Source: Magnetococcus sp. DMHC-6 (GTDB lineage Bacteria; Pseudomonadota; Magnetococcia; Magnetococcales; JADFZT01). From it: a stretch of DNA of 64,000 nucleotides. How positions within the stretch are numbered: position 1 is the stretch's first letter; every line of letters begins with the position of its first letter. Both the position numbers and the translations under genes were made by a program. The stretch lies in assembly GCA_039908535.1 (NCBI GenBank), contig JAMOAW010000027.1:10705-74704 (forward strand), read 5' to 3'. The notes beneath the pieces were generated by a model that was given only the letters and a program-made list of their open reading frames with translations, was not told the origin of the DNA and did no database searches. Positions 69 through 64,000 of the stretch are shown one piece after another.

Positions 69-914
69 ATGCAAGATCACGATCAAAAAGGCTCACTTTT
101 ATTGGATTGGATGCCGCCTGGATATAATCCACGTCACTATTTTGAGGAGGATGGGGAGTATCTGACCGACATCTCTTTTGCGGGTCATATGTCACCCCCT
201 TGGACCCGTAGGGAATTGGATCGGGTGATCTATTCCGATTCAGAATGGGGGACGCTCAAGTTTGAGGAGGTGGCCACTTGGGTTGAGCAGGATTTGCACG
301 GCCGCGACACTACAGGTTGGGGGTTGAACGCTTATTTGGATCACTCTTTGGCGTATATTGCCGCCAGGATTGGAAAAGTTGTGGAGCCTGACCTGACCAT
401 TCAGTATGATTTGAGTCAGCGTCTTTATCTGCGGATGGCTCGACGGCACAAGCTGCTGAATGGCGTGATGGCCATGAATCCCATGCCTACTCTGACAATC
501 CATGGGACACATGGTTGGGGGAAGTGGCCAGAGTATGCCCCTTATTATCGGGGGTATCTGGATGAACCTACGGCGTTGCGTCGGCTTTATCGCACCTCTC
601 GCATTAATTTGCATGAAGGTCCTGGTGTCCATTTTCGTAGCCTGGATTGCATGGCATCGGGGGGGGTGCTTTTTTTTATGGAAACGCCAGAGGATGTCTC
701 TCTGGGAAGATTGGAGAGCATCTTTCAACCTGATGTTCATTACATACATTTTACTCCAGAAAATTTTGCCGAAAAGGCGACCAAACTTCTGGAAAATCCG
801 GTTAATCTGCGTCAGATTGCGGCTAATGCTGCCCAGGAAGTACGTCAACGGCATACATGGCGTCATCGTGCCGAGAAAATTCGTGAAGATTTACTTCATA
901 TATTGGAACAATAA
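69..914 (+). CDS. Glycosyltransferase-like protein (CgeB / Glyco_trans_1_2-type C-terminal domain)
   Basis: 281-aa ORF with ATG start. The C-terminal half (INLHEGPGVHFRSLDCMASGGVLFF...IHFTPENFAEKATKLLENP...RQRHTWRHRAEKI) resembles, from memory, the CgeB-type GT domain. It sits in a sugar-modification cluster. Confidence 0.45.
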   Translation: MQDHDQKGSLLLDWMPPGYNPRHYFEEDGEYLTDISFAGHMSPPWTRRELDRVIYSDSEWGTLKFEEVATWVEQDLHGRDTTGWGLNAYLDHSLAYIAARIGKVVEPDLTIQYDLSQRLYLRMARRHKLLNGVMAMNPMPTLTIHGTHGWGKWPEYAPYYRGYLDEPTALRRLYRTSRINLHEGPGVHFRSLDCMASGGVLFFMETPEDVSLGRLESIFQPDVHYIHFTPENFAEKATKLLENPVNLRQIAANAAQEVRQRHTWRHRAEKIREDLLHILEQ

Positions 915-3491: not shown

Positions 3492-3615
3492 TTTGTTTTC
3501 TTGTCTGGTTAGGTTGTGTGAACGGATGCGGTGGGTGTAGATTGCTACCCTTATAGATTTTCTGCTATATGTTACGTTTTATAAATTCAGTTTGCAAGTT
3601 TGCAGGGGAGAATTT

Positions 3616-3886
3616 ATACCAATTTGCGTTCAATAAGGTATTATTGGAGGGGTCCGGGAAGCGTCACGCTCCCCGGCGGGTTTGGAGGCAGAGCCTCCAA
3701 GGTCTTGTTTTTAATTTTTCCCATAGGCGTGATGTTTACGACAAAATTAAGACCTTGGGGGGCGGAGAACCGCCCCCCAACTCCCCCCACCCTTTTTTTT
3801 TAAATCTTAAAAAAAAGAGGGGGTCTGGGGATTCATCCCCCAGGGTTTTGTTTTTTATTTTTTACCCGCAGGGCATCATGTTCGAT
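3616..3886. repeat. Hairpin-repeat locus R3 (inverted outer module + core A-B-C + F)
   Basis: 3616-3748 is the reverse complement of the outer part of R10 (ataccaatttgcgttcaataaggtattattggagggg..ccggggagcgtgacgctccccgg..ttggaggcagagcctccaa). 3749-3850 is a near-perfect core. Lies in a divergent intergenic region. Confidence 0.9.
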
Positions 3887-3928
3887 AAACAGAAGAATTG
3901 GGTTATTGTTGGGAGTGTGAGTTAAGCT

Positions 3929-6004: not shown

Positions 6005-7033
6005 ATGGATCATCACATGCGCATTTCCAAACCCATTGCCGTTGTGACCGGTGGAGCTGGATTTATCGGCAGTCATATGAACGATTTATTGCTGGATGAG
6101 GGATATCGGGTTCGGGTTGTGGACAATCTCTCTGGAGGACATGTGGGCAATTTGGCTCATCATGCCAATAATCCCGATTTAACTTTGGAAGAGCGGGACA
6201 TTTGCACGGTTTCTCCGCAGGATGGGGTGTTTAAAGGGGCGCGACTGGTGATCCATTTCGCTGGGATTGGCGATATTATTCCTTCAATTGAAGCCCCACT
6301 GGATTATATGTCTACCAATGTGCAGGGGACAATACGGGTTTTGGAGGGGGCGCGTTGGGCTGGTGTCGATAAATTTGTCTATGCGGCCTCCTCTTCTTGT
6401 TATGGTTTGGCGACCACCCCCACCCGTGAGGATCATCCGGTTGCGCCGCAATATCCATATGCTTTGAGTAAAAATTTGGGTGAACAAGCGGTTTTTCATT
6501 GGCATCAGGTCTATCGTTTGCCTGTGAATTCGTTGCGTATTTTTAATGCTTATGGTACCCGAGTACGGACAACGGGTGCTTATGGGGCCGTGTTTGGGGT
6601 GTTTTTTAAACAAAAGTTGGCTGGATTGCCTTTTACAGTGGTTGGTGATGGTCTCCAGAGTCGGGATTTTATTTATGTAACGGATGTGGCGGCGGCTTTT
6701 TATGCAGCGGCCAAGAGTACCTATTCTGGAAAGATTTATAATCTTGGAGCGGGTGCCCCGCAGACCATTTTGCGTTTGGTGGAGCTGTTGGGTGGGGATT
6801 GGATCTCTATTCCCAAACGGCCTGGGGAACCAGATTGTACCTGGGCCGATATCGGTAAGATCACCCGTGAGCTGGGTTGGAGACCGCAGGTCGATTTTGC
6901 CGCTGGAGTGGCAAAAATGGTCGCTGAAATTGAAAATTGGCGGGATGCGCCGCTTTGGGATCCCGATTCCATTGCTATGGCGACTCAAACTTGGTTTAAA
7001 TATTTGCATAAAGATTCGAACATCGCCTCTTAA
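6005..7033 (+). CDS. NAD-dependent sugar epimerase/dehydratase (extended SDR)
   Basis: 342 aa. Rossmann motif VTGGAGFIGSH and catalytic YxxxK (YALSK). Confidence 0.85.
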   Translation: MDHHMRISKPIAVVTGGAGFIGSHMNDLLLDEGYRVRVVDNLSGGHVGNLAHHANNPDLTLEERDICTVSPQDGVFKGARLVIHFAGIGDIIPSIEAPLDYMSTNVQGTIRVLEGARWAGVDKFVYAASSSCYGLATTPTREDHPVAPQYPYALSKNLGEQAVFHWHQVYRLPVNSLRIFNAYGTRVRTTGAYGAVFGVFFKQKLAGLPFTVVGDGLQSRDFIYVTDVAAAFYAAAKSTYSGKIYNLGAGAPQTILRLVELLGGDWISIPKRPGEPDCTWADIGKITRELGWRPQVDFAAGVAKMVAEIENWRDAPLWDPDSIAMATQTWFKYLHKDSNIAS

Positions 7034-7040
7034 ATCAATA

Positions 7041-7292
7041 TCTGGGTGGGCGGAGAACCGCCCCCCAGACCCCCTCTTTTTTTTAAGTCTTAAAAAAAAG
7101 AGGGGGTCTGGGGGATTCATCCCCCAGGGTTTTGATTTTGTAACCGTTCAGATAAAAAAATCAAAAACAAGACCTTGGGGGATTGCATCCCCCAACCCCC
7201 CTGCTATTTGAAGAAAGCAAAACCGAATTCAAAAGCAAAGTCAAAAGCAAAGTCAAACCCCTGGGGGCAATCCCCCAGACCCCTTTTTTTTA
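7041..7292. repeat. Hairpin-repeat locus R4 (core A-B-C followed by an E-D-C' element)
   Basis: Core at 7041-7135. 7166-7285 (aagaccttgggggattgcatcccccaa ... ctgggggcaatcccccag) is the reverse complement of the C'-D-E stretch seen in R5, R6 and R9. Confidence 0.9.
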
Positions 7293-7315
7293 TTAATATA
7301 TGAACGTTGGTCTCC

Positions 7316-7348
7316 AAAAAGCCTGCCTTTTGTGCAGGCTTTTTTTTA
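7316..7348 (+). terminator. Rho-independent terminator (bidirectional shape)
   Basis: aaaaaGCCTGCcttttgtGCAGGCtttttttt. Lies downstream of repeat locus R4 and the epimerase gene. Confidence 0.7.
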
Positions 7349-7731: not shown

Positions 7732-8577
7732 ATGTCTCTTACAATTAATAGCAATGTGGCAGCCTTGAGTGCGCAACGTCATATGAATAATACGACAAAT
7801 GCGCTGCAAAAAGTCTATACCCGTCTCTCTTCTGGGTTGCGCGTAAATAGCGCGGCGGATGATGCGGCTGGACTCTCTATCTCCAATCGTATGACGGCGC
7901 AAATTCGTGGTATGAATCAGGCCGTTCGCAATGCCAACGATGCCATCTCAATGGTTCAGGTGGCGGAAGGTGCTTTGGATGAAACGACCAATGCCTTGCA
8001 ACGTATTCGGGAACTGGCGGTCCAGGCCTCGAACGGGACGTTGACCAGTACAGATCGGTCGGATCTTCAGAAAGAGGTGGATCAGTTGATTGCAGAAGTG
8101 GATCGGATTGCAACGACCACTGAGTTTAACAATCAAGCCATGTTGCAAGGAAGTATGTCGGCGGGTAGAACTTTTCAGATTGGTAACGACGCCAATCAAA
8201 CGATTCGGGTCTCTATTGGGGCGGTCACATCGACGGCTTTGGGACTGGCGACGGTTTCTATGGGTGCGGGTGGTGCCAGTGCTGGGGTGGCGATTTCACT
8301 TGCCGGGGCCGCTATTACCGCTATGGATAGTGCTTTGGATTCGGTCTCGGCCATTCGTTCGACATTGGGTGCGTTTCAAAACCGTTTTGAGGCAACGATT
8401 TCTAGCCTTACCAATATTTCAGAAAACACCTCTGCGGCCCAATCGCGCATTATGGATGCAGATATTGCCGCAGAAACGGCCAATTTGACCCGTTATTCCA
8501 TTCTGCAACAGGCGGGCGTGGCGGTTATGGCTCAGGCCAATCAGCAACCTCAAATTGCGTTACGGTTGCTCAGTTAA
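7732..8577 (+). CDS. fliC: Flagellin (short, 281 aa)
   Basis: Conserved flagellin N-terminus ([24 protein letters not shown]) and C-terminus (NRFEATI...[32 protein letters not shown]). Confidence 0.95.
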
Positions 8578-18602: not shown

Positions 18603-19433
18603 ATGCCGCTTTTTATTAATACCAATGTTGCTTCGTTAAATGCGCAGCGCAATTTGAACAAGTCAACCGGCGAACTGGGCAAAACTTTTGCTCGTTTGGC
18701 CTCTGGTCTTCGGATTAATTCGGCCAAAGACGACGCCGCTGGGATGGCCATTAGTACTCGTATGACTTCGCAGATTCGTGGATTGAGTCAGGCTTCTAGA
18801 AACGCCAATGATGGTATTTCCCTGATTCAGGTTGCGGACGGTGCTCTTGAAGAGACGACCAATGCCTTGCAAAGAATTCGTGAATTGGCGGTTCAGGCTG
18901 CGAATGGTACTTACAACTCTACCGACCGTGCCGATCTGCAAAAAGAGGTTGATCAACTTCTTTTTGAAGTGGATCGGATTTCCACAGACGTAGAGTTTAA
19001 CAACAAAAAATTGCTTTTGGGTACGAGTATTCGCAGTGTTGATTTTCAGATAGGCGATAAAGAAAATCAGACGATTGAAATCACGATCACCAGTTGTGAT
19101 ACGAGGGCTTTGCTTGGATTAACTAGCGCGAATGTGACTATTATCACAGCTTCTGATGCGGGGATGGCCTTGACGCAGTTGACTAAAGCTTTGGACAGTG
19201 TGACAACAATACGGGCCACCTTGGGTGCGGCGCAGAATCGTTTTGAAGCGGTGATCAATAATCTTTCGAACGTGGTGGAGAATATTTCAGCAGCTCGTTC
19301 GCGGATTGTGGATGCCGATATTGCCGCTGAAACGGCGACATTGACACGCAATGCCATTTTGCAACAGGCTGGAACAGCGGTTTTGGCTCAGGCCAATCAG
19401 CAGCCACAGTTGGCTTTGCAGTTGCTTGGCTAA
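18603..19433 (+). CDS. fliC: Flagellin (276 aa)
   Basis: Flagellin N- and C-terminal conserved blocks. Differs from the 281-aa pair in the central region. Confidence 0.95.
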   Translation: MPLFINTNVASLNAQRNLNKSTGELGKTFARLASGLRINSAKDDAAGMAISTRMTSQIRGLSQASRNANDGISLIQVADGALEETTNALQRIRELAVQAANGTYNSTDRADLQKEVDQLLFEVDRISTDVEFNNKKLLLGTSIRSVDFQIGDKENQTIEITITSCDTRALLGLTSANVTIITASDAGMALTQLTKALDSVTTIRATLGAAQNRFEAVINNLSNVVENISAARSRIVDADIAAETATLTRNAILQQAGTAVLAQANQQPQLALQLLG

Positions 19434-21227: not shown

Positions 21228-21356
21228 TAGAGTCTGTTGGAATTGGAATGAATTTTGCTTAATTTTTAGTAACGTCTCAAAACGGCTTTTTTTTGAAACG
21301 TGTCATACTTTTGTCGGTTTTTTAATCATAACAAATTAGGATAGCGAGATTTGACC

Positions 21357-21752
21357 ATGATGCAGACGCAGAACTACCCAACCAGCTCTTTTGAATATAT
21401 TCCGCCGGCCAATGACCCAGACCAAGAGAGCCAATTGGATCTGTTGGTTCGTCTTTATGAGGGGGCCATCGCTTTTCTGAACAAGGCCATCAAGGCATGT
21501 GAATCTTCCGAAATTGATCAGTTTAAATATTTTATTCAAAGAGGACGCCGTATTATTGAGGAGTTTCAAAATACGCTCGATTTTACAGAAGGTGGTTTGG
21601 TTCCCACACAGTTAAATGATCTTTATGAATATATGCTCGACAGCTTGACACAGGCCACTTTGACTCACGATACCCTTTTTGTAGAACGGGTTAATGAGCA
21701 ACTGGAGGTTCTCCTGGATGGCTGGAGAGGCCTTCAGCAACCGAGTCACTAA
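21357..21752 (+). CDS. fliS: Flagellin-specific chaperone FliS (copy 1)
   Basis: LLVRLYEGAIAFL...EFQNTLDF..GG..QLNDLYEYM is the FliS four-helix pattern. ATG at 21357; the track start at 21351 is a TTG. Confidence 0.8.
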   Translation: MMQTQNYPTSSFEYIPPANDPDQESQLDLLVRLYEGAIAFLNKAIKACESSEIDQFKYFIQRGRRIIEEFQNTLDFTEGGLVPTQLNDLYEYMLDSLTQATLTHDTLFVERVNEQLEVLLDGWRGLQQPSH

Positions 21753-21766
21753 CGGAATCTGCTTAA

Positions 21767-22213
21767 ATGTCCTATGGTTTAAAAAGTTACAAAACCTCCA
21801 AGACCTATACCGCCTCTCGGGAAGATCTTTTAATCCTCTTATATGAGGGGGCGATACGTTTTCTTGAACGGTCCATCAAGGAGAAAGAGAGTGGGACCTT
21901 AAGCGAACATAAAATGTATTTGCGCAGAGGTCTATGTATTATTGCCGAACTGCAAAGTACATTAGATTTTCAGCAAGGGGGGGATTTGGCCATACAGTTG
22001 TTTGAACTGTATGGATATATGCTGGATCGGTTGACGCAAGCCAATTTGACCCAGGATATGGAGCACATCAGCAGAGTTATTGGGCATTTGAATACCTTAT
22101 TGGAAGGGTGGCGTGTCGCTGTAGCCCAGGTCAAAAAGGAAGGAGGTCTACCTGGCACAATGGGAACCGCCTCCGCCAATTCATCCTCTGTTGCACGTGT
22201 GAGTAGTTTATAG
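21767..22213 (+). CDS. fliS: FliS paralog (copy 2, with C-terminal extension)
   Basis: LLILLYEGAIRFL...ELQSTLDFQQGGDLAIQLFELYGYM is collinear with copy 1. Confidence 0.75.
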   Translation: MSYGLKSYKTSKTYTASREDLLILLYEGAIRFLERSIKEKESGTLSEHKMYLRRGLCIIAELQSTLDFQQGGDLAIQLFELYGYMLDRLTQANLTQDMEHISRVIGHLNTLLEGWRVAVAQVKKEGGLPGTMGTASANSSSVARVSSL

Positions 22214-22215
22214 TG

Positions 22216-22554
22216 ATGGATAGTGCTCTCACCCGTTTAGAAAATTTATTGGATCGTTTTCGTGAACCAGAAAAATTGGGTGCTGAGGAGTTAGGCGTAC
22301 TCTCCCAGTTATGGTCCGAAGGAGTCGAGTCGGTGGTCCAGGCTGGCAAGACGATTCACCTCCAAGAGGCGCAAAAAGATCAGTATAGGATACGTTTGCA
22401 ACAATTGATCGATCAATTGCCAGCCATCGAAACACTGCTAAGTCAGCACAAGTCAGAGGTGGCCCAACGTCTTTATGCGGAAAATCGACGCTTTAAAGCC
22501 TTGGCCAGCAGTTATGGGGGCTCGGGACGAAATTCGATGGGGCGTACGGTGTAA
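22216..22554 (+). CDS. Small helical protein of the flagellar locus (FliT-like position)
   Basis: 112 aa from the ATG at 22216, immediately after fliS. I recognise no diagnostic motif; the function is inferred from position only. Confidence 0.3.
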   Translation: MDSALTRLENLLDRFREPEKLGAEELGVLSQLWSEGVESVVQAGKTIHLQEAQKDQYRIRLQQLIDQLPAIETLLSQHKSEVAQRLYAENRRFKALASSYGGSGRNSMGRTV

Positions 22555-22750
22555 GATATAAATAAAAATAAAAAATTAAGACCTTGGGGGCGGAGAACCG
22601 CTCCCAACACCCCCTTTTTTTTTTTTATTAAAAAAAAAAAGGGGTCTGGGGGATTGCCCCCAGGGTTTTGCTTTTGCTTTTGACCTCGGTTTTGCTTCCT
22701 TCAAAAAGCAGGGGGATTGGGGGATGCAATCCCCCAAGGTCTTGACTTTG
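22552..22750. repeat. Hairpin-repeat locus R6 (A-B then C'-D-E)
   Basis: aagaccttgggggcggagaaccgctcccaa..T13..A11..ggggtctgggggattgcccccaggg..ttgacctcggttttgcttccttcaaaaagcaggggg attgggggatgcaatcccccaaggtcttgactttg. Overlaps the 3' end of the hslR ORF. Confidence 0.9.
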
Positions 22751-23140
22751 TAAACAGAGTCGTCTGCGCTCCCGTTTGGTTGGACGCGGACCACCAGGAA
22801 TGGGAGCTGTGCCGAGAATAGCAACTATTTGGCGTTTTTTCTCGCTCTCCTCCTGACGCTTTTTTTGACTCTGGGCCGTCTCTTGATATAAAAGGATCGC
22901 TTCTCGCGCTGGTCCACGTTGTTCGGAAACGCCAGTGACATCCACAATCCATTCTATGGATTCTTTGCCAATCTTTAGTTGATCCCCTATTTTTAGTGTG
23001 TGTCCAGGTTTGACGCGGGCCCCATTTAAATGCACCCGCCCGCCAGTGACAGCTTGGGCGGCCAATGCCCGTGTTTTAAAAAAACGTGCGGCCCAAAGCC
23101 ATTTGTCGATTCGAACCGTCATAAAAGAAGGGGGGGTCAT
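22628..23140 (-). CDS. hslR: S4-domain ribosome-associated heat-shock protein Hsp15, with a repeat-encoded C-terminal tail
   Basis: [38 protein letters not shown] is the Hsp15 pattern. Residues after ~130 are translated from repeat R6. Confidence 0.8.
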
Positions 23141-25851
23141 GTAAAATCGCCTTTTTCAGGAGAGAGAACCGTTTTGGCCAGATATTCGCTTGTTTGATGA
23201 ATCTCCCCCGTGACCTGTTGCAAACTTTCGCCCCATTGTCCAAATTGTTGGAGTAGATCCTGTGTCCTTAAGAGGTGCTCGGTGGTATCCTGCGTTTGTT
23301 GAAGCAAAAATAGGCTTTCCTGCGTGGTTTGCTGAAAAAGGGTACCGGTTTTGTGGATCTCCTCTGAGGTAGCTACCACCTGATGGGTGATTTCGGTAAT
23401 CTTTGTTGAAATGGCATTGATGCTGTGATTGACCTGGGCCATCTCTTCGGATGCCGTATGGATCCGTTGCGTGACTTCGCGGGTCTCTTGCGAAACCATC
23501 TGCATGGTTTCGGTAATGTTTTGAATGGTGTGGCTCTGTTCATCTAAGCTGTTGAGGATGACCTCTGTGGAGAGATCAATTTTTTCAATATGATGAGCCA
23601 CTTGCTTGGAGACGGAGGTTGCGTCTGTGGTGTTGTTTTGTATTTCGTGAATTTTAAGGGTAATCATCTGGGTGGCTTGACTGGTTTGCCGGGCCAGCTC
23701 TTTGACTTCGTTGGCGACCACCGCAAACCCTTTGCCCGACTCTCCCGCTCCAGCGGCCTCAATGGAGGCGTTTAAGGCCAGCATATTGGTTTGTTCGGCG
23801 ATATCGTTGATGAGTTCAACGACGGTGTCGATCTCTTGGGCCGAGATAGCAAGTTTTTCCATGGATTGGATGCTGATTTTGGCCTGCTGACTGGCTTGGC
23901 GGGCCTCATTTCTGGATGTTTCGCTTTGCTGGCGGACATCGGTTTGGGTGAGAAACATTGTATGGATGGCCGTGGCAACGTCGTGGAGATGGGTATCGGA
24001 TCTTTGGACCGCCTTTTGAACCTGTCCCATGCGGTTATTGCTCTCCTCAGCGGCTTGGGCAACCGAAGAGAGGTTGGAACTGGCTATTTCTGCCGAATTG
24101 GTAATCTCCTGCATATCTATATGGATGGCTTGGATGGTTTGGGTTAGATTTTTTAATAAAAGAACCATGCGTTCGGTGTGCTGATGGAGAGAAGGGGGGC
24201 TATGTTGGTGGTGTTGGGATGTGCAGATCCATGTCTCAGACATGGCTTGGCTGATCTCATGCAACGAGTGACTGGCCAGTTTTAATTTTTGTGTCAAGGG
24301 GGAGAGGGTTTGGAGTTGGGTATGGGCTTGGTTGCGAATGGCGGCATTTTCTTCGGCAAAGGCATTTGGGGTCGAAAGGGGAGTTGTTATCTCTTTGTTT
24401 ACCCATTGACCTGTTGTCCATGCTAAAATGATTCCAATGGCTAAAATAAGCAGAGCCAACCAACCGGCAAAGGTTGTGTTTGGCAACGGCGGCAGCTCTT
24501 GCAGGGTATCTGTAGGTTGTTGTGCCCAGGCCGCAGGAATATCTAATAAAGAGCGAAAGAAAGAGAATGTGGAGGAGATGTCGTCGGGATGGAGAAGCCT
24601 GGAATTGGATTGCTGGGGCATTTTTTGGGCGGCTTGTGTGGCTTTTTCCAAAGCCAAGTAAAGGGCTTCCATGGCCTGTTCAATCTTTTTATGAGAGGGG
24701 GTGGGAATGTTTTTTGTCCATTGGGTAAAACTGTTTTGGTAATCTTGTAACAGTTTATAGAGCTTCTCTTTTTCTGGTTGGGGAGTAAATTGTTTGGCAT
24801 CGCTAGGTTGGTCAAAGAGCATATAATTTTGCTCCAAAACGCGTGCGTTTAGATAATCTTTCCATAAATCAGGGACATAGAGCGCGGTGAGCGTGGTTTC
24901 CATCTCTGCAGCCAAACGGTTTAATTCGTCTGGGTTTGTCTCCTCTGTTTTGGAGTTTTGTATAAATATATCAAATGTATTTGTGTAGTCTTGAAATGTT
25001 TTGGATAACTTTTGTTGTGTGCTTGAAGCCAGTTTGCTCTGGGCTAACTCTTTCATAAAGAGCACTTGCAGACGTTTGAATTCGTCCAAAGCCTCCTCTT
25101 TTTGCAGGAGATAATCCTTCTCCGCTTTGCGCATACGAATAAAGGTGGTTCGAATCTGGGAGATATCCATCTCGTTGAGTTGGGTTTCCAGGTTGGTCCG
25201 GGCTTGCTGCTGTAGGGGGTGGGCTTGGATTTTTGTGCTGGCAAGGAGGGCCTGTTTTAATTGGGTCAAAGCTTGGTCTAATGCCTGGATGCTTGGGTCA
25301 TTATTTAATATTTTTAAAAGTTTATCGGTTGCTTGATGGGCTTGGTCGAATAATTCTTGTTGCGGTTGGGTTTGTCTTGGCATCGCAATAGTGGCGGCGA
25401 TTTTTAAAAGAAGCCCGTGGAGGGCTAAAAGGGGATCTATGCTGGGGTTGGAAGCCAAGTGGGGTGCCGGAGACGCAATTTTTGGTGTGACCAGAAGGGG
25501 GGCTGGATGGGTGAGTGAGTGGTTATTTGGTTGTGCGGTTTTGGTCTCTGGGCATGGGCTTTGCGGGGGGGGCTTTGGGCATTCTGTCACGGTTGGACAT
25601 TTCGAAACGGTCGCAACAGAGAGTTGCCAAGCGCAATCGTTGGTCTTATCAGTTAAGAGTTGGGCCTGCTTGAGCAGTGTCTGATAACGAGCTGTGGTTT
25701 GGTCTAACAGGCTTTGATAGTACCAAAAACCGCCAGCCACCCATAAAATAAATATACCAAAGGCCAACGCAATTTTAGCTCGAGGGGTCGTAGGAGAAGA
25801 TGTTTTGAAATAGTTCACAGAATTCAGCCCTTTTAGAAAAATTGGTTGCAA
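23137..25851 (-). CDS. Methyl-accepting chemotaxis protein (904 aa)
   Basis: C-terminal signalling domain [35 protein letters not shown]. Two TM segments. Apparent TTG start. The stop overlaps the hslR start (ATGA). Confidence 0.85.
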
Positions 25852-26517: not shown

Positions 26518-27012
26518 ATGACATTACAACAAGGGGATCTTGACCAAATTGTTCAATATATTAAACCGCAATTTATCCTCTGGATGTCAGATCGGGTGTT
26601 GGAAAAACCCCATGAACTTTATGAAATTGAATGGCGTGAGCGCATTATTCGGGTTGAGGAGGCGTTAAAACATCAGCGTGAATTGATGCAGCAGGGGTTC
26701 GCAATGATGGGAAAACAGTTGGAACTGGAGGATAAACGGTTAGAGCAGGTGGATAAACGGTTAGAGCAGGTGGATAAACGGTTAGCTTTGCTACAATCTG
26801 AGATGGATAAACGGTTAGAGCAGGTGGATAAACGGTTAGCTTTGCTACAGTCTGAGATGGATAAACGGTTTGAGCAGGTGGATAAACGGTTTGAGCAGGT
26901 GGATAAACGGTTAGTTTTGCTACAATCTGAGATGGATAAACGGTTTGAGCAGGTGGATAAACGGTTAGTTTTGCTACAATCTGAGATGGATAAACGGTTC
27001 ATAAACGTTTAG
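26518..27012 (+). CDS. Heptad tandem-repeat (DKR[LF]EQV) coiled-coil protein, apparently frameshifted from its C-terminal membrane anchor
   Basis: Good RBS (aaaggagg) and ATG. Tandem 21- and 33-nt units from 26731. The frame starting at 27003 continues KRLEFLTQRIDRFMIWSFGITLALSGIVITALKILR* to 27113. Confidence 0.7.
   Translation: MTLQQGDLDQIVQYIKPQFILWMSDRVLEKPHELYEIEWRERIIRVEEALKHQRELMQQGFAMMGKQLELEDKRLEQVDKRLEQVDKRLALLQSEMDKRLEQVDKRLALLQSEMDKRFEQVDKRFEQVDKRLVLLQSEMDKRFEQVDKRLVLLQSEMDKRFINV
26731..27000 (+). repeat. In-frame tandem repeats (21-nt gataaacggttagagcaggtg and 33-nt gataaacggttagctttgctacaatctgagatg units)
   Basis: Read directly from the sequence. There is a higher-order duplication of the DKRLEQV/DKRLALLQSEM pattern with L->F and A->V variants. 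Confidence 0.95.
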
Positions 27013-27183
27013 AGTTTCTTACGCAACGGATTGATCGTTTTATGATTTGGTCCTTTGGTATAACGCTCGCTTTGTCGGGTATCGTCATCACAGCACTAAA
27101 AATTTTAAGATAATATTTTTTGAAATCTTTTATCGTTGGATATGTATATGAATGTCAATTGGCAAGGGGTGAGTGGTTCTGAA

Positions 27184-36190: not shown

Positions 36191-36430
36191 GTATCGGAAA
36201 AATAAAAAATCAAGACCTTGGGGGCGGAGAACCGCCCCCAACACCCCCACCCTTTTTTTTTATTAAAAGAAAAAAGGGGGCTGGGGGAGTGCCCCCAGGT
36301 TTTTTTTTTGACTTTTTACCCGAAGGGCATCATGTATGAACCAAGAGCTTGGGGGGGCGAATCTCCTCTGAAACAACCGGGGGCCCCCCAATCCCCCCTT
36401 TTTTTTGCTTAACTTATTTAAAAAAAAGAG
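36191..36430. repeat. Hairpin-repeat locus R8 (core A-B-C + F + second degenerate A-B)
   Basis: gtatcggaaaaataaaaaatcaagaccttgggggcggagaaccgcccccaa ... ttacccgaagggcatcatgtatg ... cttgggggggcga..ccccccaatcccccc-T9..A8gagg. Confidence 0.9.
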
Positions 36431-36441
36431 GTTTAAATTCC

Positions 36442-39400
36442 ATGTTGGATGACTTTTCTGGCCCGGTTCGATTGCCGCGACTTTCCATCTTTTGGAAAAT
36501 GATGTGGATTAATCTGCTGGTGGGTGGGGTCTCTTTTGTTATTATCTTTGCTTGGCAGTCGCAGTTTTCAGAGTTTTTTTTTCAGGAACATCTGCGCGAT
36601 GAGTTGGAAGTGCAAGGCAAAATTCATCGGTCGGATTTTGATCATCGTGTGCGGACGTTGATGAGTGCCATGGCCATCTATGCCGACCACACGAATTTAT
36701 ATCGTTATTTGAGTCAACGCCTAACGACCGGTGCGCAAAAGTCACCGGTCGTAGTCCATCGTCGTTTGCCTGCTTGGATGCCGCCCGCCTCGTTGGTGCG
36801 GGCGATTACCCAGCCCACCTTTTTGTTGTTAACCGATGCCGAACAACATCTCCAAGAATTGTATCGCAATGGGGATGAGGCGACTACTCCCGATTTTATT
36901 TCCTTACTCGCCACCCCTTTGGCGTATTATACGGTTGGCAAGATGACCATGCTTGGGGATGTGGCCAGCCTTATTGTTGCGAAAGAGGTTCGGGATGAAA
37001 ACGATCGACTGTTGGCCTATTTGGTCAGTATTACCTATTTGGATGATTATTTTTTGAAAGAGGCTTTGCAAATTTCTGAAGATGGACCTATCGCGCTTCT
37101 GTGGAACAATGCAACCCAAAAAATAATTGCCAGTAGCGATCCCAGTCGTATCCATGCAGGTATGGCGGTGGGGGAGATTGAGGAGCGGTATTATCTGGTT
37201 AAGAAAAATTTTTTTGACGATGCCTCGGATCTTCTTGTGACTTTTGCTTCTGGTGTGGTCAAGAAAGCGGAAGACGAGCAGGTGCAACGCTTGAAGGGTC
37301 AGTTTAGTCGTTTTAGCCTTTTATTGGAAGCTGCTTTTATTTTTGTCTCTTTATTGGTCACCTTTTCGATCTCTTTTGGAATTCGTCGGTTAACGCACCA
37401 TGTGATTGGATATACACAGCACTCTTTAGACTCTTTTGTTGGTTGCCAAATGGATGTGGCCCCGTTTCGGGGCTGGAAAGAGTTGATTGAGTTGGCTATG
37501 AGTTTTAATTTATTGACCAACCGCTTGCGGGAGAAGCATCTCACCCAGGAGCAGTTGATGGGGGAATTACATCAAGCCAAAGTCACGGCCGATGCGGCCA
37601 ATCGTTCCAAGTCGGAATTTTTGGCCAATATGAGCCATGAAATCAGAACGCCGATGAACGCCATTATTGGTTTGGGCCATTTGTTGAGTAAGACCAAGTT
37701 GACGGCTAAGCAATTTGATTATGTCACCAAAATGAGTGCCTCTTCCCATGGTTTGCTTGGGATTATCAATGATATTTTGGATTTTTCTAAGATCGAAGCG
37801 GGCAAGTTGCAATTGGAAGAGGTTGAGTTGGACCTGGATATGGTGTTGGAACAGTTGGCCAATATTATCTCCATCCGTACTGAAGAAAAAGGGTTGGAAC
37901 TTTTGTTTGATATCCATCCAGAGGTTCCGCGTCGCCTGCTAGGGGATCCGTTGCGCGTGGGGCAGATATTGCTCAATCTGGCCACCAACGCCGTTAAATT
38001 TACTCATCAAGGGGAGATAGTTGTTTTTATAAAGGTTAACTCCTGCGATGAGGAGAGGAGTACCTTGTTGTTTGGTGTTCGTGATACGGGTATTGGTCTC
38101 ACACCAGAACAACTCCAGACGCTGTTTCGTCCCTTTCAACAAGCCGATTCTTCCACAACACGCCAATTTGGTGGTACGGGGTTAGGACTCTCTATTTGTC
38201 GTTATCTCGTTGAACAGATGGGCGGTGAGATTTGGGTCGAGAGCCAACTGGGTATGGGTTCGACTTTTTATTTTACGGCACAATTTAAAAATGTGGTCCA
38301 GGCACAGCCTAGGTTATGCAAAATTTCTCCAGACTTACATGGGAATCGGGTGTTGGTTGTGGATGACAACCCTGTGGCTTTGATGGTTCTTGGTAACTAT
38401 TTAGAGGCTATGAGCTTTCGGGTCGAACGGGTCTCTTCTGGCCAAGAGGCGTTGACACAATTGGTTGAATCATATCAAAAAAATGATGTCTTTGAAGTGG
38501 TTTTTATGGATTGGAAGATGCCAGTTATGGATGGCATCCAGACCATTCAGCAGATTCGCAACCATCCTGGAATTTTTCAACCGGTCTGTATCATGGTGTC
38601 GGGTTATGGCCTTGAGGAGATGCGGGAGCGATTGGCAGAGGAGGGATTTGTCAATGGATATTTGACAAAACCGGTCACCTCTTCGCAATTGTATAACTCT
38701 ATTTTGGCAGCCATGCGTGGGGAGGATTTGACCAGAACGGGCGAGGTTGGCAGGAATTCTATTTATTTTCCCGATCCAATCCGGTTCCGAGGGGTGCGGG
38801 TGTTGTTGGCAGAGGACAATCGGGTGAATCAACAGGTGGCCATGGAGATTTTGCAAGAGGCCCAGATTCGGGTGGATATAGCGCAAAATGGCTTAGAGGT
38901 GGTGAAAAAGGTGTTTGAACAGATGCAGCCCCCCTACGATGCCATTCTTATGGATATTCATATGCCGTTGATGGACGGCTTAACTGCGACGCAAACCATT
39001 CTTGCGCGTTTTCCAAAATTTTCTACCCCTATCATTGCCATGACCGCCAGTGCCATGAAACAGGATATAGATGCCTGTTTGGCGGTGGGGATGGCGGCAC
39101 ATGTGGCTAAACCGATTGATGTGCGTCAGCTATTTGTTCTTTTGGAGCGATTTGTTGAACGCAAAGAAGAGGCCGATATTCCCTTGGATGAGGCCATTCG
39201 TCCATCCAATACGGTGGGTGGATTGGCCGAAATTTTGACTGGGGATTTTCCTGGATTGAATATTTCAGAAGGGCTTAAACGAATTTATGGCAATGAGTCG
39301 GTGTATTTGCAATTATTGCAAATTTTTCAAGATGAGGAGGCGGCAACTTCTTTAAAATTGGACCAATTGCTGCAACAAAATTTATTTGCAGACGCCGTGT

Positions 39401-39831
39401 CCGTGCTGCATGGCGTGAAAGGGGTGGCGGGAAATTTGGGGGCTTTGGATTTACAATCGGTGTCGGCTCGGTTGGAAAAATTTTTAAAATCCACTCCCCA
39501 TGCCGATGTTGACGCCCTAGTGACTTCTTTTCAGCTCTCTTTGGCCACAGTTTTGGAGAGCATCCAGAAAATTTTATTTTTGGTTAAACAAGAAAAAACA
39601 CGTAACCAAGCAGACGTGGTTTTGGATGTGGTGGAGCCATTCTCAATCGAAGGGGTGCAGAAGTTGCGTTTTTTATTGGAAAAACAGGATTTGGGCGCGG
39701 AAAATTTGTTAAATATTTTAAGGCCTGGGTTGATCGGGGCTGGATTTTCTAGGGAAGTGGATCAATTGACTAAGGCGATGGGCCAACTCAATTTTTCCGA
39801 GGCGATCCAAATTTTAGATCACATGAAATAA
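36442..39831 (+). CDS. Hybrid sensor histidine kinase (periplasmic domain - HisKA - HATPase - REC - REC - Hpt)
   Basis: AAGAGG RBS and ATG at 36442; the track start at 36349 lies inside repeat R8. H-box [14 protein letters not shown]. Two receivers. Hpt motif [13 protein letters not shown]. Confidence 0.85.
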
Positions 39832-39834
39832 ACG

Positions 39835-40026
39835 GCACCACCACACTTAACCGTGGTCATCTGTTTTTTGATTGATTAAATGCCCCCAGGGTTTGGTTTT
39901 TGTTTTTGATCTTGCTTTTGACCTCGGTTTTGCTTTTTTCAAAAAGCAGGGGGATTGGGGGATGCAATCCCCCAAGGTCTTGACTTTGCTTTTTGTTCAG
40001 GCACTCGTTAATCATCCACACTTAAA
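39835..40026. mobile_element. Second copy of the TIR element seen at 9641-9864 (locus R9), right end truncated
   Basis: GGCACCACCACACTTAACCGTGGTcatctgttttttgatt ... gttcaggcactcgttaatcatccacacttaaa. Collinear with 9641-9852, with an internal deletion. The right TIR stops after cttaaa. Confidence 0.75.
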
Positions 40027-40043
40027 CTATAGGCATTTTGAAC

Positions 40044-54428: not shown

Positions 54429-55055
54429 TCAGAACAATTTAAACATTTTGCCAAGCATACCTGTAATCGATATGGCCGAAAACAGAATGGCAAAAGTAAA
54501 AAGTCGAATGGTGAGCATGCGATTTTCCCGCAAACCGGCATCAATTTTAACATCAATGCGTTCCAATAATTTGTCCAATTTGTTACCAACTTCTTTAATT
54601 TCAACATGCATTTCTTCGAAGCGTTTGTCCACCTGTTCGAAGCGTTTGTCCACCTGTTCGAAGCGTTTGTCCACCTGTTCGAATCGTGTATTTATATCGA
54701 GACGGTTTTTATTAAAATTTTCTTTTGTATCTGTCCTCAAATCATCAATACGTTTATCGATCTGTTCGAAGCGATTATCTACCTGTTCAAACCGTGTGTT
54801 TATATCGAGACGGCTTTTATTAAAGTTTTCTTTTGTATCTGTTCTCAGTCCATCAATATGTTTATCTAATTGTTCAAATTGATATTTTGTATCTTTTTTG
54901 AACTCGTTAAGTTCGGTACGGACATGAAGGATATCATGTTGCAGGTGGTCGAAGCGAACTTCGAGATATTTGGTTGTTGGAACAAAATTAGCGAGCAACA
55001 TATCGATTGTTTTTTTGTCTAAAGGCAAGCTAATTGGATTTTCCTGTTCAGTCAT
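54429..55055 (-). CDS. Heptad tandem-repeat (DKRFEQV) coiled-coil protein with C-terminal membrane anchor
   Basis: 208 aa. RFEQVDKRFEQVDKRFEQVDKRFEEM and a duplicated ~39-aa unit. C-terminal TM LTIRLFTFAILFSAISITGMLG. Paralogous in architecture to 26518-27113. Confidence 0.7.
   Translation of the reverse strand: MTEQENPISLPLDKKTIDMLLANFVPTTKYLEVRFDHLQHDILHVRTELNEFKKDTKYQFEQLDKHIDGLRTDTKENFNKSRLDINTRFEQVDNRFEQIDKRIDDLRTDTKENFNKNRLDINTRFEQVDKRFEQVDKRFEQVDKRFEEMHVEIKEVGNKLDKLLERIDVKIDAGLRENRMLTIRLFTFAILFSAISITGMLGKMFKLF
54615..54677 (-). repeat. Three exact 21-nt tandem units (ttcgaagcgtttgtccacctg on the + strand)
   Basis: Read directly from the sequence. Encodes (QVDKRFE)x3. Confidence 0.95.
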
Positions 55056-63000: not shown

Positions 63001-64000
63001 CAGCGGAACCAATACCTATTATATTATTGATACAGCAGACAAATTGGTACTCACAACTAATGCAATTTTAGACCAGGCGGTTACCGTCACGGTCAGTGGA
63101 CCGCCGGCAACGGCGGCTCAAGCCTCTATTTTGGCTGCTTTTACCAAACCGGTGGTTTTTACTGTTTCCGATACTATTGCCAACATGGAGACAAGTACTG
63201 GTTTGGGTGAAGCGGTTTCGGTCACCGTTGTGGACAGTGCGAATCATATCACGGCGGCTGATTTTATGGCCGGCAATTTGGCCTTGGTGACTCTGTTGAC
63301 GGTAAGTGATAACGCGGATGTCACCCTATCCGTAGACGAATTAAATCGACTCACGGTGACCACCACAGGCACCATTCATTTAGCGGATACGGCAGCCAAA
63401 ATCAATGCGGTGGATTTGACCACATTAAAATTTGCCCAGGTGACCACCTTGGAGGCCACAGATGGGGGAACTATTGTTTTAACTGTCGACGAGATGAATC
63501 GTTTTGCCGTCCTGGACACGGTATCTGATACAGCGGCAAACATTAATGCGACCGATTTTACCACGGGCCACATGGCCAACGTGACCTCTTTGACGGTGAG
63601 TGATGGTGGTGACATTATTTTGAGCATTGCCGAATTGAGCCGTTTGACCATCACCACCACTGGTGTGGTTATTGTGTCGGATACGGCAGAAAATATTAAT
63701 GCGGCTGATTTTACCTCTGGAAATTTGGCTCAGGCCGTTGTGTTGGATGTGAGTGATGGAGGTGCTATTCATATAAGTATCTCTGAATTGACGCATTTCG
63801 CCTATGATCTAATAAATGGTTATAGTACGTTGGATGTCGTAGATACTCCGACCAACTTGTTGGCAGAAAAGACAAATATTGAAAATTTGTATGTAGATGG
63901 ACGTGTGAGTTCATTGACTGCAACTGTTTTTGCAACAGCAACAGAAGCGGATACTTTGGCCGATTTTAGTGTTCCTGTGCAATATAGTATTTCGGATACT
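60032..64000 (+). CDS. Giant repetitive surface lipoprotein / adhesin-like protein (5' partial, continues past the window end)
   Basis: I translated the frame from the ATG at 60032 and found no stop through 64000. The ORF track omits it, probably because it has no stop. Internal lipoprotein signal MAALKGAAFSVLVLPLAATLAGC if started at the TTG at 60251. Ca-binding-like DSDGDGVQD. More than 20 modules carrying the [YF]x[IVL]SDTAxNL motif. Confidence 0.8.
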   Translation, partial: MNQFHTSLHSVADKTSGDFGVEFSPVLISGHALHAVRSIEGEISAKPGVYEIELPTERSEFIKFVTEWESKHRLAALKGAAFSVLVLPLAATLAGCGGGGGGGGGTSTELGWVVDGPIKDATVWRDSDGDGVQDSGEKWTTSNADGSFDTAAVTGAGVLRSKGGTDVVTGQSFADIVLSAPDGSTTISPVTTLIQEYALANGVDATTAQASVKTLLGISTTTDLLSYNPTDNTALGNQVIAEAQKIIAATRTLNSFGVNIQTAFSSVITQLSTATDATQADFSNALTIQTMLANNGITTPDAVTLAQTIATSIQKIATAVVQNGYNSTAAKDTVTEAVSVSNTAAGVLVTAADLAAGTYSQVTGSVNVTVTAPATVAQLAAIDAKTTGSLSYASIVDTAAHLVGNSYVTGNVNVTVTDTTTVSVISTIDAQTAGKLTYNLSDTAANLAGASAAIGNGAGSMTATTTANAAQAKVIEAFTNSGLTTYDVSDTATALAASTGLNSAVKITATTLATGAEATVLANFAKAVVYSISDTATNVANSSGLNKAVHITATTAASVQQATAIVNAANSGTKTYDLSDTAENLAGAVLAVGNGAGTISATTTATVLQATAIEAFTNSGLTIYNIIDTAESLATSSNAVLTLAGTVTASTVATAAQASILAGFTKEVVYNISDTATALAASTGLDEAVNITATTAATVAEANVIVLANNTGTNIYNLSDTASNLAAASSAVGNGAGTITATTSVTVAQAAAIEAFSNSGVNAYAIADTASHLAAATNAVLSLGSTVTATDLATGAEATILASFAKPVVYSVSDTVTNLLASSGLNEAVNVTATTPVTLQQAAALEAFSNSGINTYAIADTVSHLIASTDAILSLGSTVTATDLATGAEATLLASFVKPVVYSVSDSAANLAASSGLNEAVHITATTAATVQQATTIVNATNSGSNTYHLSDTAENLAGASLAVGNGAGSITATTTANVAQATAIDAFTNSGTNTYYIIDTADKLVLTTNAILDQAVTVTVSGPPATAAQASILAAFTKPVVFTVSDTIANMETSTGLGEAVSVTVVDSANHITAADFMAGNLALVTLLTVSDNADVTLSVDELNRLTVTTTGTIHLADTAAKINAVDLTTLKFAQVTTLEATDGGTIVLTVDEMNRFAVLDTVSDTAANINATDFTTGHMANVTSLTVSDGGDIILSIAELSRLTITTTGVVIVSDTAENINAADFTSGNLAQAVVLDVSDGGAIHISISELTHFAYDLINGYSTLDVVDTPTNLLAEKTNIENLYVDGRVSSLTATVFATATEADTLADFSVPVQYSISDT
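61200..63240 (+). repeat. Type-I protein modules (44-48 aa; xYx[IL]SDTAxNLA...ITATT...QA..I.AF.NSG), including a 276-nt tandem duplication (62291-62566 and 62567-62842)
   Basis: Read from the translation. Boundaries are approximate. Confidence 0.8.
63240..63800 (+). repeat. Type-II protein modules (47-51 aa; INAxDFTxGxxAxVTxLTVSDGGxIxLSIxELxRL...SDTAxN)
   Basis: Read from the translation, about four copies. Boundaries are approximate. Confidence 0.75.

What the first reader, a model, noticed from the sequence alone, without database searches (positions are those of the whole stretch)
22628..22756. Repeat locus R6 supplies the last ~40 codons of hslR
The Hsp15 ORF is conventional through ...[13 protein letters not shown] (about residue 128), which is close to where Hsp15 proteins normally end. 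The ORF then continues for ~40 more codons (..[37 protein letters not shown]). These are translated from the E, D and C' modules of the repeat, which begin at 22750. The insertion appears to have removed or displaced the native stop codon. It created a repeat-encoded tail with a Lys-rich stretch, a proline-containing segment and an FFF end. Similar repeat-derived peptides appear in spurious ORFs at other loci, but this is the only case fused to a real gene.
Basis: partly seen in the sequence, partly recalled or inferred. Interest (0 to 1): 0.55.

Follow-up and report, generated by a model that had tools for sequence, protein, structure and literature searches.

The report
Mobile-repeat-encoded tail on Hsp15 gene
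In this magnetotactic-coccus genome the small heat-shock gene hslR (Hsp15) has lost its last few codons and its stop codon and reads 40 codons into a truncated mobile palindromic repeat, a real but already familiar kind of accident that also affects at least one other gene of the same genome.

Summary
ORF 22628..23140 (-) encodes a 170-aa Hsp15-type S4-domain protein, identical to the protein annotated in NCBI for the MAG Magnetococcus sp. DMHC-6. Its core is intact. Codons 131-170 and the stop lie inside repeat locus R6 (22564-22750), and the boundary is exactly at 22750/22751.

Among the other 119 best homologues, 114 of the 116 that carry the RPxKxxRR motif end 6-14 residues after it. This protein ends 44 residues after it.

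The tail-coding unit (E-D-C') is the internal part of a 224-bp MITE. A complete copy lies at 9641-9864, with 23-nt terminal inverted repeats and an 8-bp target duplication. The R6 copy lacks both ends, and hslR lacks about 5-6 native codons. A deletion or rearrangement junction therefore fits better than a clean insertion.

The case is not unique. HolB (DNA polymerase III delta') of the same MAG carries the same repeat peptide, in the same frame, in place of its native C-terminus. An antitoxin ORF in Magnetococcus sp. YQC-5 also runs into a repeat of this family.

The tail is predicted to be disordered and shows no sign of selection. This is a new member of a known kind (compare Coxiella QMITE2-enhC and Rickettsia RPEs). 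Interest is low to moderate.

The parts
22751..23140 (-). Native part of hslR (Hsp15-type S4-domain protein), residues 1-130. The ATG start overlaps the stop of the upstream MCP gene (ATGA).
   Evidence: All 35 invariant columns of the 22-sequence alignment are kept. AF2 pLDDT is above 90 for the core.
22628..22750 (-). Repeat-derived tail: codons Q131-F170 plus the TAA stop (22628-22630), followed by a second in-frame TAA.
   Evidence: No homologue has this tail. It is predicted as coil with pLDDT 54-72.
22564..22750 (.). Mosaic repeat locus R6. It consists of an A-type hairpin module, a T-run/A-run, the E hairpin, the D spacer (CAAAAG-type hexamers) and the C' hairpin. It fills the whole gap between the convergent genes.
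   Evidence: Folded as RNA it gives -84.8 kcal/mol, z = -6.6.
22701..22735 (-). C' hairpin (9-bp stem GGGGGATTG/CAATCCCCC) followed by UGCUUUUUGA. This is a terminator-like site inside the extended ORF (codons 136-147).
   Evidence: pattern scan; -19.6 kcal/mol. Function not tested.
22646..22663 (.). E hairpin CTGGGGG-ATTG-CCCCCAG, terminator-like on both strands, lying in codons 160-165.
22612..22644 (.). T12/A11 long hairpin. On the minus strand the 11-T run (22630-22640) encodes FFF and supplies the first base of the stop codon, so the tail length depends on the homopolymer length.
   Evidence: I5/I6.
22586..22606 (.). A-module hairpin GGGGGCGGAGAACCGCTCCC with an AAGACCTTGG leader. On the minus strand it is followed by a U-rich tract and is the likely final terminator of the hslR transcript.
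   Evidence: (D8, D10).
9633..9872 (.). Reference copy of the 224-bp MITE that contains E-D-C'. The element spans 9641-9864, with terminal inverted repeats at 9641-9663 and 9842-9864 and an 8-bp target-site duplication CCCGATGC at 9633-9640 and 9865-9872. It is nested in another repeat element.
39834..40025 (.). Second MITE copy (R9), with the left terminal repeat and a truncated right end. It starts 3 nt after the stop of gene 36349..39831.
   Evidence: (D18, 95%).
7156..7296 (.). Inverted copy (R4) of C'-D-E without terminal repeats. Its conceptual translation is almost identical to the HolB tail.
   Evidence: (I1, I2).
22213..22554 (+). Convergent neighbour ORF (113 aa, no Pfam hit) downstream of fliD and two fliS genes. 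Its stop lies 9 nt from R6.
23137..25851 (-). Methyl-accepting chemotaxis protein gene immediately upstream of hslR, probably in the same operon.

Best explanation
This is a genuine genomic gene-repeat fusion with no selected function.

The genome (MAG Magnetococcus sp. DMHC-6) is crowded with mosaic palindromic repeats that sit 0-18 nt after stop codons. One family is a 224-bp MITE whose internal part is E-D-C'. Downstream of hslR, a copy of this MITE was joined to an ordinary A-type element. On the gene side it lost its terminal about 50 nt together with the last 5-6 codons and the stop of hslR, most likely by a deletion or an illegitimate recombination.

The repeat is free of stop codons in two of three frames. 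The ORF therefore runs on for 40 codons to a TAA in the AT-rich spacer.

The product is an otherwise intact Hsp15 with a 40-residue, probably disordered tail. This is tolerated because the Hsp15 C-terminus is flexible.

Shown: the fusion, the repeat origin of the tail, the truncation of both partners, the MITE nature of the element, and recurrence in HolB. Inferred: deletion as the event, translation of the tail, and its neutrality.
For: - ORF and its coordinates.
- Hsp15 identity with an intact core.
- The same 170-aa protein is in the NCBI annotation of the MAG.
- Repeat boundary at 22750, with 123 nt of ORF inside the repeat.
- Tail-length outlier, 44 residues against 6-14.
- Complete MITE with 23-nt terminal inverted repeats directly flanked by the 8-bp duplication CCCGATGC. 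Removing the element and one duplication copy restores the usual ...TTGCCCGA..GCATCATGTT end of the host element.
- The R6 copy lacks both terminal repeats and the 50-nt gene-side end.
- Frames 0 and 1 of the repeat are open in R6, R9 and R4.
- The other repeat loci in the window lie just 3' of genes, with 0-14 nt of overlap.
- HolB of the same MAG has the same peptide in place of its conserved last 14 residues or so.
- An antitoxin ORF in YQC-5 runs about 35 codons into a repeat.
- The tail is predicted as coil with low pLDDT.
- E. coli Hsp15 residues 107-133 are disordered on the ribosome, and a C-terminal 5xGS-FLAG fusion still pulls down ribosomal proteins: PMC9757039.
- Published precedents: QMITE2 gives 33 C-terminal residues to Coxiella EnhC (PMC5896051). 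Repeats that extend the 3' ends of genes are reviewed in PMC3184786.
Against: - The sequence is a metagenome-assembled genome, and I could not inspect read support for the junction or for the 11-base homopolymer that sets the stop.
- No relative closer than 57-58% identity exists in the searched collections. The ancestral state and the nature of the event (deletion or insertion) are therefore inferred only from the architecture of the element.
- C'-type hairpins also occur without MITE ends (R4, R10). C'-D-E may therefore move or recombine as a module, and 'truncated MITE' may oversimplify.
- Translation of the tail is not shown.
- Two housekeeping genes carry the same peptide in the same frame. 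This could hint at selection, although the search could only detect that one frame.
Confidence: 0.74

Rival explanations
1. ORF-internal terminator (non-stop) model. The C' hairpin with its U-tract (22735-22701), or the E hairpin followed by the U11 run, ends most hslR transcripts before the TAA at 22628. Ribosomes then reach the mRNA 3' end, the protein is tagged by tmRNA and degraded, and the fusion acts as a knock-down of Hsp15 rather than as a tail. This rival concerns the consequence of the fusion, not its origin, and is compatible with the fusion being real.
For: Terminator-like sites on the minus strand lie inside the tail (5 found against 1.8 +/- 1.4 in shuffles). The C' hairpin folds at -19.6 kcal/mol. 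In R5 and R9 the same hairpin lies downstream of minus-strand genes, where a terminator would be expected. The same idea was raised for QMITE2-enhC (PMC5896051). From my own knowledge, REP elements within about 15 nt of stop codons in E. coli cause ribosome stalling and trans-translation (Liang, Rudd and Deutscher, Mol Cell 2015).
Against: Translation through a hairpin normally prevents it from forming, so terminators inside an ORF are usually suppressed. The E hairpin is separated from the U-run by ACCCC. A further hairpin with a U-rich tract lies beyond the stop (22606-22560). No transcript data are available.
Confidence: 0.15
2. Assembly or sequencing artefact of the MAG. In the organism hslR has its own stop, and the junction or the frame is wrong.
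For: The source is a MAG. The region is rich in repeats and contains homopolymers of 11-12 bases. Neither the DMHC-6 contig nor any reads could be retrieved.
Against: The junction lies at the boundary between unique and repeat sequence, not inside a repeat where mis-joins arise. None of the three frames has a stop near the junction, so an indel cannot restore a normal end. About 5-6 native codons are missing, not only the stop. The contig runs through ten repeat loci with normal genes on both sides of each. An independent contig shows the same kind of fusion in holB.
Confidence: 0.06
3. Fresh, clean insertion of an intact mobile element into the 3' end of hslR, displacing the native end and stop.
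For: The element family does transpose, as shown by the terminal repeats and 8-bp duplication in R5. The elements land within a few bases of stop codons.
Against: R6 has no MITE terminal repeats and no target duplication, and the gene-side 50 nt of the element are missing. There is no displaced hslR remnant: only 9 nt lie between R6 and the neighbouring stop. R6 is a mosaic of two element types.
Confidence: 0.08
4. The tail is a selected, functional addition. For example, it could be a Lys-rich RNA- or ribosome-binding extension, or a degron ending in FFF. In that case the MITE would act as a reusable C-terminal peptide module, as proposed for Rickettsia RPEs.
For: The same peptide in the same frame ends two unrelated housekeeping proteins of one genome. 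The Hsp15 C-terminus is proposed to contact a partner factor on the 50S subunit (PMC9757039).
Against: The search could only detect this one frame. Intergenic copies R4 and R9 give virtually the same conceptual peptide, so sequence conservation is explained at the DNA level. R5 is frameshifted. The tail is predicted to be disordered. No homologue outside this MAG has it (only self and HolB among 1.84 billion representatives).
Confidence: 0.06

Closest known systems
Coxiella burnetii QMITE2 fused to enhC (strain Dugway), and QMITE1/2 overlaps with the 3' ends of genes (PMC5896051)
   Same: A small non-autonomous palindromic element at the 3' end of a real gene supplies the last 33 residues and the stop. 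All affected functional genes are hit at their 3' ends. A non-stop consequence through RNA processing of the element's stem (RNase III) was discussed for that case too.
   Different: The element family and the host phylum differ. In Coxiella a sister strain shows the alternative state, an indel that gives a stop before the element. No close relative is available here. The copy here is truncated and mosaic.
Rickettsia palindromic elements (RPE; Ogata et al. 2000, cited in PMC3184786)
   Same: Palindromic repeats that are translated as part of host proteins, recurrently in several unrelated genes.
   Different: RPEs are mostly inserted internally and in frame without destroying the host ORF. Here the native C-terminus is replaced. 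Translation is unproven here.
E. coli REP/BIME mosaics (bacterial interspersed mosaic elements)
   Same: GC-rich palindromic units combined with short spacer motifs in variable mosaics. They are extragenic, lie directly 3' of genes and often between convergent genes, and have terminator- or mRNA-stabiliser-like structure.
   Different: There is no sequence relation. At least one family here has MITE-type terminal repeats and an 8-bp target duplication, which REPs lack. Association with a RAYT transposase was not examined.
Neisseria Correia elements (CREE)
   Same: MITEs of 100-250 bp with terminal inverted repeats, in very many copies close to genes, co-transcribed, and carrying hairpins.
   Different: Correia elements duplicate TA, not 8 bp, and the sequences are unrelated. 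This comparison rests on my own knowledge and was not tested here.
Canonical Hsp15 (HslR) of E. coli
   Same: S4 domain, a long helix and the conserved RPxK(R/K)xRR C-terminal motif.
   Different: E. coli Hsp15 has 133 aa and ends 9 residues after the RR motif (from my own knowledge of the sequence). This protein has 170 aa and has exchanged that end for 40 repeat-encoded residues.

Membership tests
Hsp15 / HslR (ribosome-associated heat shock protein) | N-terminal S4 RNA-binding domain | tested here: met
   Pfam PF01479, E = 1.5e-13, residues 9-55.
Hsp15 / HslR (ribosome-associated heat shock protein) | Hsp15-type C-terminal helix and basic RPxKxxRR motif (Pfam HSP15_C) | tested here: met
   A precomputed PF28601 hit is recorded for the identical protein P0001. 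The motif RPTKRERR occupies residues 119-126 and aligns with 21 homologues.
Hsp15 / HslR (ribosome-associated heat shock protein) | Score above the NCBIfam equivalog cut-off (NF007673, 148 bits) | tested here: not met
   105.6 bits, below the 148-bit cut-off. It is therefore best called an Hsp15-type S4-domain protein, as NCBI does.
MITE (miniature inverted-repeat transposable element) | Terminal inverted repeats | tested here: met
   Met for the reference copy: 9641-9663 and 9842-9864, 23 nt, 87% complementary. NOT met for the R6 copy fused to hslR, which lacks both ends.
MITE (miniature inverted-repeat transposable element) | Target-site duplication directly abutting the ends | tested here: met
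   CCCGATGC at 9633-9640 and 9865-9872. By my own estimate the chance of this is about 1 in 65,000. R6 has no such duplication.
MITE (miniature inverted-repeat transposable element) | Small size, no transposase ORF, several copies | tested here: met
   The element is 224 bp. Copies or fragments lie at R4, R5, R6, R9 and R10 in 64 kb.
MITE (miniature inverted-repeat transposable element) | A cognate autonomous IS with the same terminal repeats | not tested
   The rest of the DMHC-6 genome could not be retrieved. The terminal-repeat motif is absent from the 135 fetched loci.
REP/BIME-type extragenic palindromes | Short GC-rich imperfect palindromes, extragenic, high copy number, in mosaic arrangements | tested here: met
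   Ten mosaic loci lie 3' of genes in the 64-kb window. The hairpin pattern has 9 matches against 0 expected.
REP/BIME-type extragenic palindromes | Association with a RAYT (IS200/IS605-like) transposase | not tested
   No such gene was looked for outside the window.
Any Rfam RNA family | Match at the gathering threshold | tested here: not met
   The best match was ctRNA_pGA1 at 28.4 bits against a 45-bit gathering score. All others were weaker.
Intrinsic terminator | GC-rich hairpin immediately followed by a U-tract | tested here: inconclusive
   The pattern scan finds sites on both strands. Function cannot be tested with these tools.

The most novel reading that the evidence does not exclude
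The internal E-D-C' module of a Magnetococcales MITE may be a recurrently recruited and actually translated C-terminal peptide module on housekeeping proteins (Hsp15 and HolB in one genome). Alternatively, its ORF-internal terminator hairpins may turn these genes into constitutive non-stop messages. For the ribosome-rescue factor Hsp15, that would tie its own level to the cell's trans-translation capacity.
Probability: 0.06. Interest if true: 0.6.

Novelty: new member of a known kind. Interest (0 to 1): 0.3.

Why it matters
In practical terms, it flags an annotation issue. The public 170-aa 'S4 domain-containing protein' and the 366-aa HolB of this MAG both carry repeat-derived ends that should not be propagated as family features.

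In biological terms, it is a clean example of how densely packed MITE/REP-like elements sitting on stop codons remodel protein C-termini. It occurs in a lineage (freshwater magnetotactic cocci) whose repeat content, as far as I could find, has not been described. The family is shared at 75-95% nucleotide identity between MAGs that the literature places in different families. That observation is probably more interesting than the hslR tail itself.

Tried and rejected
1. A word-index protein search with the 41-aa tail returned nothing, not even the parent protein. This is a limitation of the tool and not evidence. It was replaced by the exhaustive HMMER scan.
2. I looked for a close strain lacking R6. 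The best non-self Hsp15 is 57% identical in the 5.8-billion-protein collection and 58% in JGI metagenomes.
3. I checked synteny in the nearest homologues. It is not conserved: minCDE-hslR for P0002, and other neighbours for P0003 and P0038. hslR of YQC-3 ends ...RDGE* and is followed by ordinary sequence.
4. I tried to fetch the DMHC-6 holB or hslR contigs. They are not on record, so the holB junction could be studied only at the protein level.
5. The Rfam scan gave nothing above the gathering threshold.
6. I looked for a displaced native hslR end beyond R6. There is no room for one (9 nt) and no Hsp15-like reading there.
7. Frameshift error as an explanation was rejected, because no frame has a stop near the junction.
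A genome-wide census of fusions was therefore not possible.
9. Most mechanical ORFs that overlap repeats in other Magnetococcales loci have no Pfam match and look spurious, or the overlap lies at their 5' end, where it comes from taking the first possible start codon.

Full report
**1. What is there**

The minus-strand ORF 22628..23140 encodes 170 aa.
- Residues 9-55 are an S4 domain (Pfam, E = 1.5e-13).
- Residues 7-128 match the NCBIfam Hsp15 model, although below its equivalog cut-off (105.6 against 148 bits).
- An identical 170-aa protein is annotated in NCBI as 'S4 domain-containing protein [Magnetococcus sp. DMHC-6]' (MEO5377455.1). The window therefore comes from that metagenome-assembled genome.
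- The start ATG overlaps the stop of a 904-aa methyl-accepting chemotaxis protein gene. Downstream and convergent are fliD, two fliS genes and a 113-aa ORF that ends at 22554.

**2. The tail is an outlier**

I aligned the protein with 21 homologues, including three other Magnetococcales. Every invariant residue is kept, and the others end 7-12 residues after the conserved RPxKxxRR motif.

Across the 120 best database hits, 116 homologues carry the motif. Of these, 114 end 6-14 residues after the RR (mode 9-10) and two end 20 and 23 residues after it. The window protein ends 44 residues after it.

Only four residues after the RR (RLCL) are native. About 5-6 native codons are therefore missing as well as the stop. 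AlphaFold2 with this alignment gives pLDDT above 90 for the core, a helix at 122-135, and coil with pLDDT 54-72 for 136-170.

**3. The tail is repeat DNA**

- A self-BLAST restricted to the ten repeat loci of the window defines R6 as 22564-22750.
- hslR has 123 nt inside this interval. The 16 other neighbouring genes have 0, 2 or, in one case, 14 nt inside a repeat.
- The alignment with copies R5 (9650-9860), R9 (39850-40040), R4 (7130-7330) and R10 places the boundary at 22750/22751, the first base of codon Q131.
- The stretch 22666-22750 is 95% identical to 39904-39988.
- No frame has a stop at the junction. Frame 0 runs 40 codons, frame 1 runs 58, and frame 2 runs 17. A base-calling indel therefore cannot restore a normal end.
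- The TAA at 22628-22630 is made of the last T of an 11-T run followed by AA. The exact tail length therefore depends on that homopolymer. From established knowledge, such runs are prone to sequencing error and to transcriptional slippage (reviewed in PMC5009743).

**4. What the repeat is**

The window holds ten mosaic loci built from a few hairpin modules:
- A: GGGGGCGGAGAACCGCCCCC.
- B/E: CTGGGGGATT(CAT/G)CCCCCAG.
- C': TTGGGGGATGCAATCCCCCAA.
- A GCCCGAAGGGC hairpin.

These are combined with A-rich leaders, T/A runs and CAAAAG-type hexamers. All loci lie just 3' of ordinary, unrelated genes. The distance from stop codon to repeat is 0-18 nt. No Rfam family reaches its threshold.

In R5, the E-D-C' unit is the inside of a discrete 224-bp element. 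It has 23-nt terminal inverted repeats at 9641-9663 and 9842-9864. An 8-bp direct repeat, CCCGATGC, abuts both ends at 9633-9640 and 9865-9872. Removing the element and one copy of the duplication restores the usual ...TTGCCCGA..GCATCATGTT end of an A-type element. It is therefore a MITE that transposed into another repeat.

R9 keeps the left terminal repeat and part of the right end. R4 and R6 have neither.

**5. How the fusion probably arose (inferred)**

- The R6 copy begins, on the gene side, inside the MITE. The about 50 nt GCTTTTTGTTCAGGCACTCGTTAATCGTCCACACTTAAATGTGGTGGTACC that follow C' in R5 and R9 are absent.
- On its other side, the R6 copy is joined through the shared T-run/A-run/B-E region to an ordinary A-type module.
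- hslR is itself a few codons short, and only 9 nt separate R6 from the neighbouring stop codon. There is no room there for a displaced native end.
- Both partners are thus truncated at the junction. This points to a deletion or illegitimate recombination that removed the element's end together with the gene's end and stop, rather than to a clean insertion.

**6. It is not unique**

An exhaustive HMMER scan of 1.84 billion representative proteins with the 42-residue tail found, apart from the protein itself, one clear match. A third hit, P0122, reached E = 7.4e-05 at 48% identity over 28 residues and is an unrelated repetitive protein.

The clear match is P0121 (E = 5.8e-10, 85% identity), with the match at residues 323-363 of 366. 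P0121 is DNA polymerase III subunit delta' of the same MAG, on another contig (MEO5376588.1). Magnetococcales HolB proteins are mostly 320-335 aa (range 315-348). In the twelve-sequence alignment they end 14-18 residues after the conserved NLNRxLxLE. The DMHC-6 protein lacks that end and carries [45 protein letters not shown] instead. This is almost the conceptual translation of the intergenic copy R4.

In Magnetococcus sp. YQC-5, an ORF whose antitoxin domain (dnstrm_HI1420) ends at residue 180 runs about 35 further codons into a repeat of this family (L071).

The recurrence fits elements that sit on stop codons and lack stops in two frames. It does not require selection, because the scan could only see one frame.

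**7. Consequences (inferred)**

If the mRNA reaches 22628, ribosomes should translate the tail. On the 50S subunit, residues 107-133 of E. coli Hsp15 are disordered, and a C-terminal 5xGS-FLAG fusion still co-purifies ribosomal proteins (PMC9757039). An appended disordered tail is therefore plausibly tolerated.

Alternatively, transcripts may end before the stop. Two candidate sites exist:
- the C' hairpin with UGCUUUUUGA (22735-22701, -19.6 kcal/mol);
- the E hairpin followed by the U-run.

That would give non-stop messages and tmRNA tagging, as was suggested for the Coxiella enhC-QMITE2 fusion (PMC5896051). I rate this at about 0.15, because translation normally suppresses terminators inside an ORF, and a further hairpin with a U-rich tract lies beyond the stop.

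**8. Wider context**

The hairpin pattern AAGACCTTGGGGG-N(4-12)-CCCCCAA recurs in other Magnetococcales MAGs: YQC-5, nWRX3bin6, Umea_bin-01869, nNGHbin13 and WMHbin3. Whole elements are 75-89% identical to the window copies, and one 56-nt stretch is 95% identical. DMHC-6 and YQC-5 are placed in different families, and FCR-1, a member of YQC-5's family, has only 55% AAI with DMHC-6 (PMC11950176).

No close relative of DMHC-6 was found. The ancestral hslR end therefore cannot be observed.

**9. Verdict**

The mechanism is refined to a truncated, mosaic MITE remnant at a deletion junction. The uniqueness claim is refuted at the genome level.

Repeat elements that replace or extend protein C-termini are well documented: Coxiella QMITEs, Rickettsia RPEs, and the cases reviewed in PMC3184786. 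This is therefore a new member of a known kind, in an undescribed repeat family. The main caveat is that the sequence is a MAG without accessible read support.

Noticed in passing
window 9633-9872: A complete 224-bp MITE with 23-nt terminal inverted repeats (GGTACCACCACACTTAA...) and an 8-bp target-site duplication CCCGATGC. It is nested inside the GCCCGAAGGGC-hairpin end of another repeat element. This is direct evidence that at least one of these repeat families transposes.
   Followed up: yes
P0121 (MEO5376588.1, Magnetococcus sp. DMHC-6, another contig); compare window 7156-7296: DNA polymerase III delta' (HolB) of the same MAG has its conserved last 14 residues or so replaced by a 44-residue peptide from the same repeat in the same frame. 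The DNA could not be retrieved.
   Followed up: partly
loci L002-L075 (Magnetococcus sp. YQC-5, Magnetococcales nWRX3bin6, Umea_bin-01869, nNGHbin13, WMHbin3): The same mosaic repeat family occurs in other Magnetococcales MAGs at 75-95% nucleotide identity, although DMHC-6 and YQC-5 are assigned to different families (FCR-1, of YQC-5's family, shares only 55% AAI with DMHC-6). The repeats are far better conserved than the proteins. This suggests either horizontal spread or strong constraint.
   Followed up: partly
L071:28-687 (+), Magnetococcus sp. YQC-5: An ORF with an antitoxin domain (dnstrm_HI1420, residues 94-180) continues about 35 codons into a repeat. The mechanical ORF also joins the upstream toxin-like part and the antitoxin in one frame without a stop between them.
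   Followed up: partly
window 901-914, 2189-2190, 7032-7033, 9536/9537, 39831/39834: Repeats start 0-18 nt after stop codons. The glycosyltransferase-like ORF 69..914 takes its last 4-5 codons and its TAA from the repeat leader (14 nt of overlap). In three other genes the repeat starts at the stop codon itself or at the very next base.
   Followed up: partly
loci L001, L003, L006, L012, L016 and others (Lachnospiraceae, Defluviitaleaceae, Peptococcaceae MAGs): The pattern AAGACCTTGGGGG-N5-CCCCCAA also hits many loci, often several per genome, in unrelated Clostridia. This is possibly an independent hairpin repeat family with the same stem.
   Followed up: no
window 22630-22640 and 22615-22626: Homopolymer runs of 11 A and 12 T form a long A:T hairpin. 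The hslR stop codon depends on the exact run length: one base fewer adds 18 residues, and one base more opens the frame much further.
   Followed up: partly
window 3569-3925 (+) and 22576-22824 (-): Long mechanical ORFs (118 and 82 aa) are made almost entirely of repeat sequence. Such ORFs could be mis-annotated as hypothetical proteins.
   Followed up: no
window 26676-27041; 54615-54795; 61077-64000: Other, unrelated periodic repeats inside coding regions: 54-nt and 21-nt periods, and 276/420-nt units in what looks like a large repetitive protein at the end of the window.
   Followed up: no
window 7732-8577, 8691-9536, 18603-19433, 15126-17627; 21351-22213: Several flagellin paralogues (two of 281 aa end ...[10 protein letters not shown] and ...[10 protein letters not shown]; one of 276 aa ends ...[10 protein letters not shown]) and two adjacent fliS genes. 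This is a flagellar and glycosylation gene neighbourhood.
   Followed up: no
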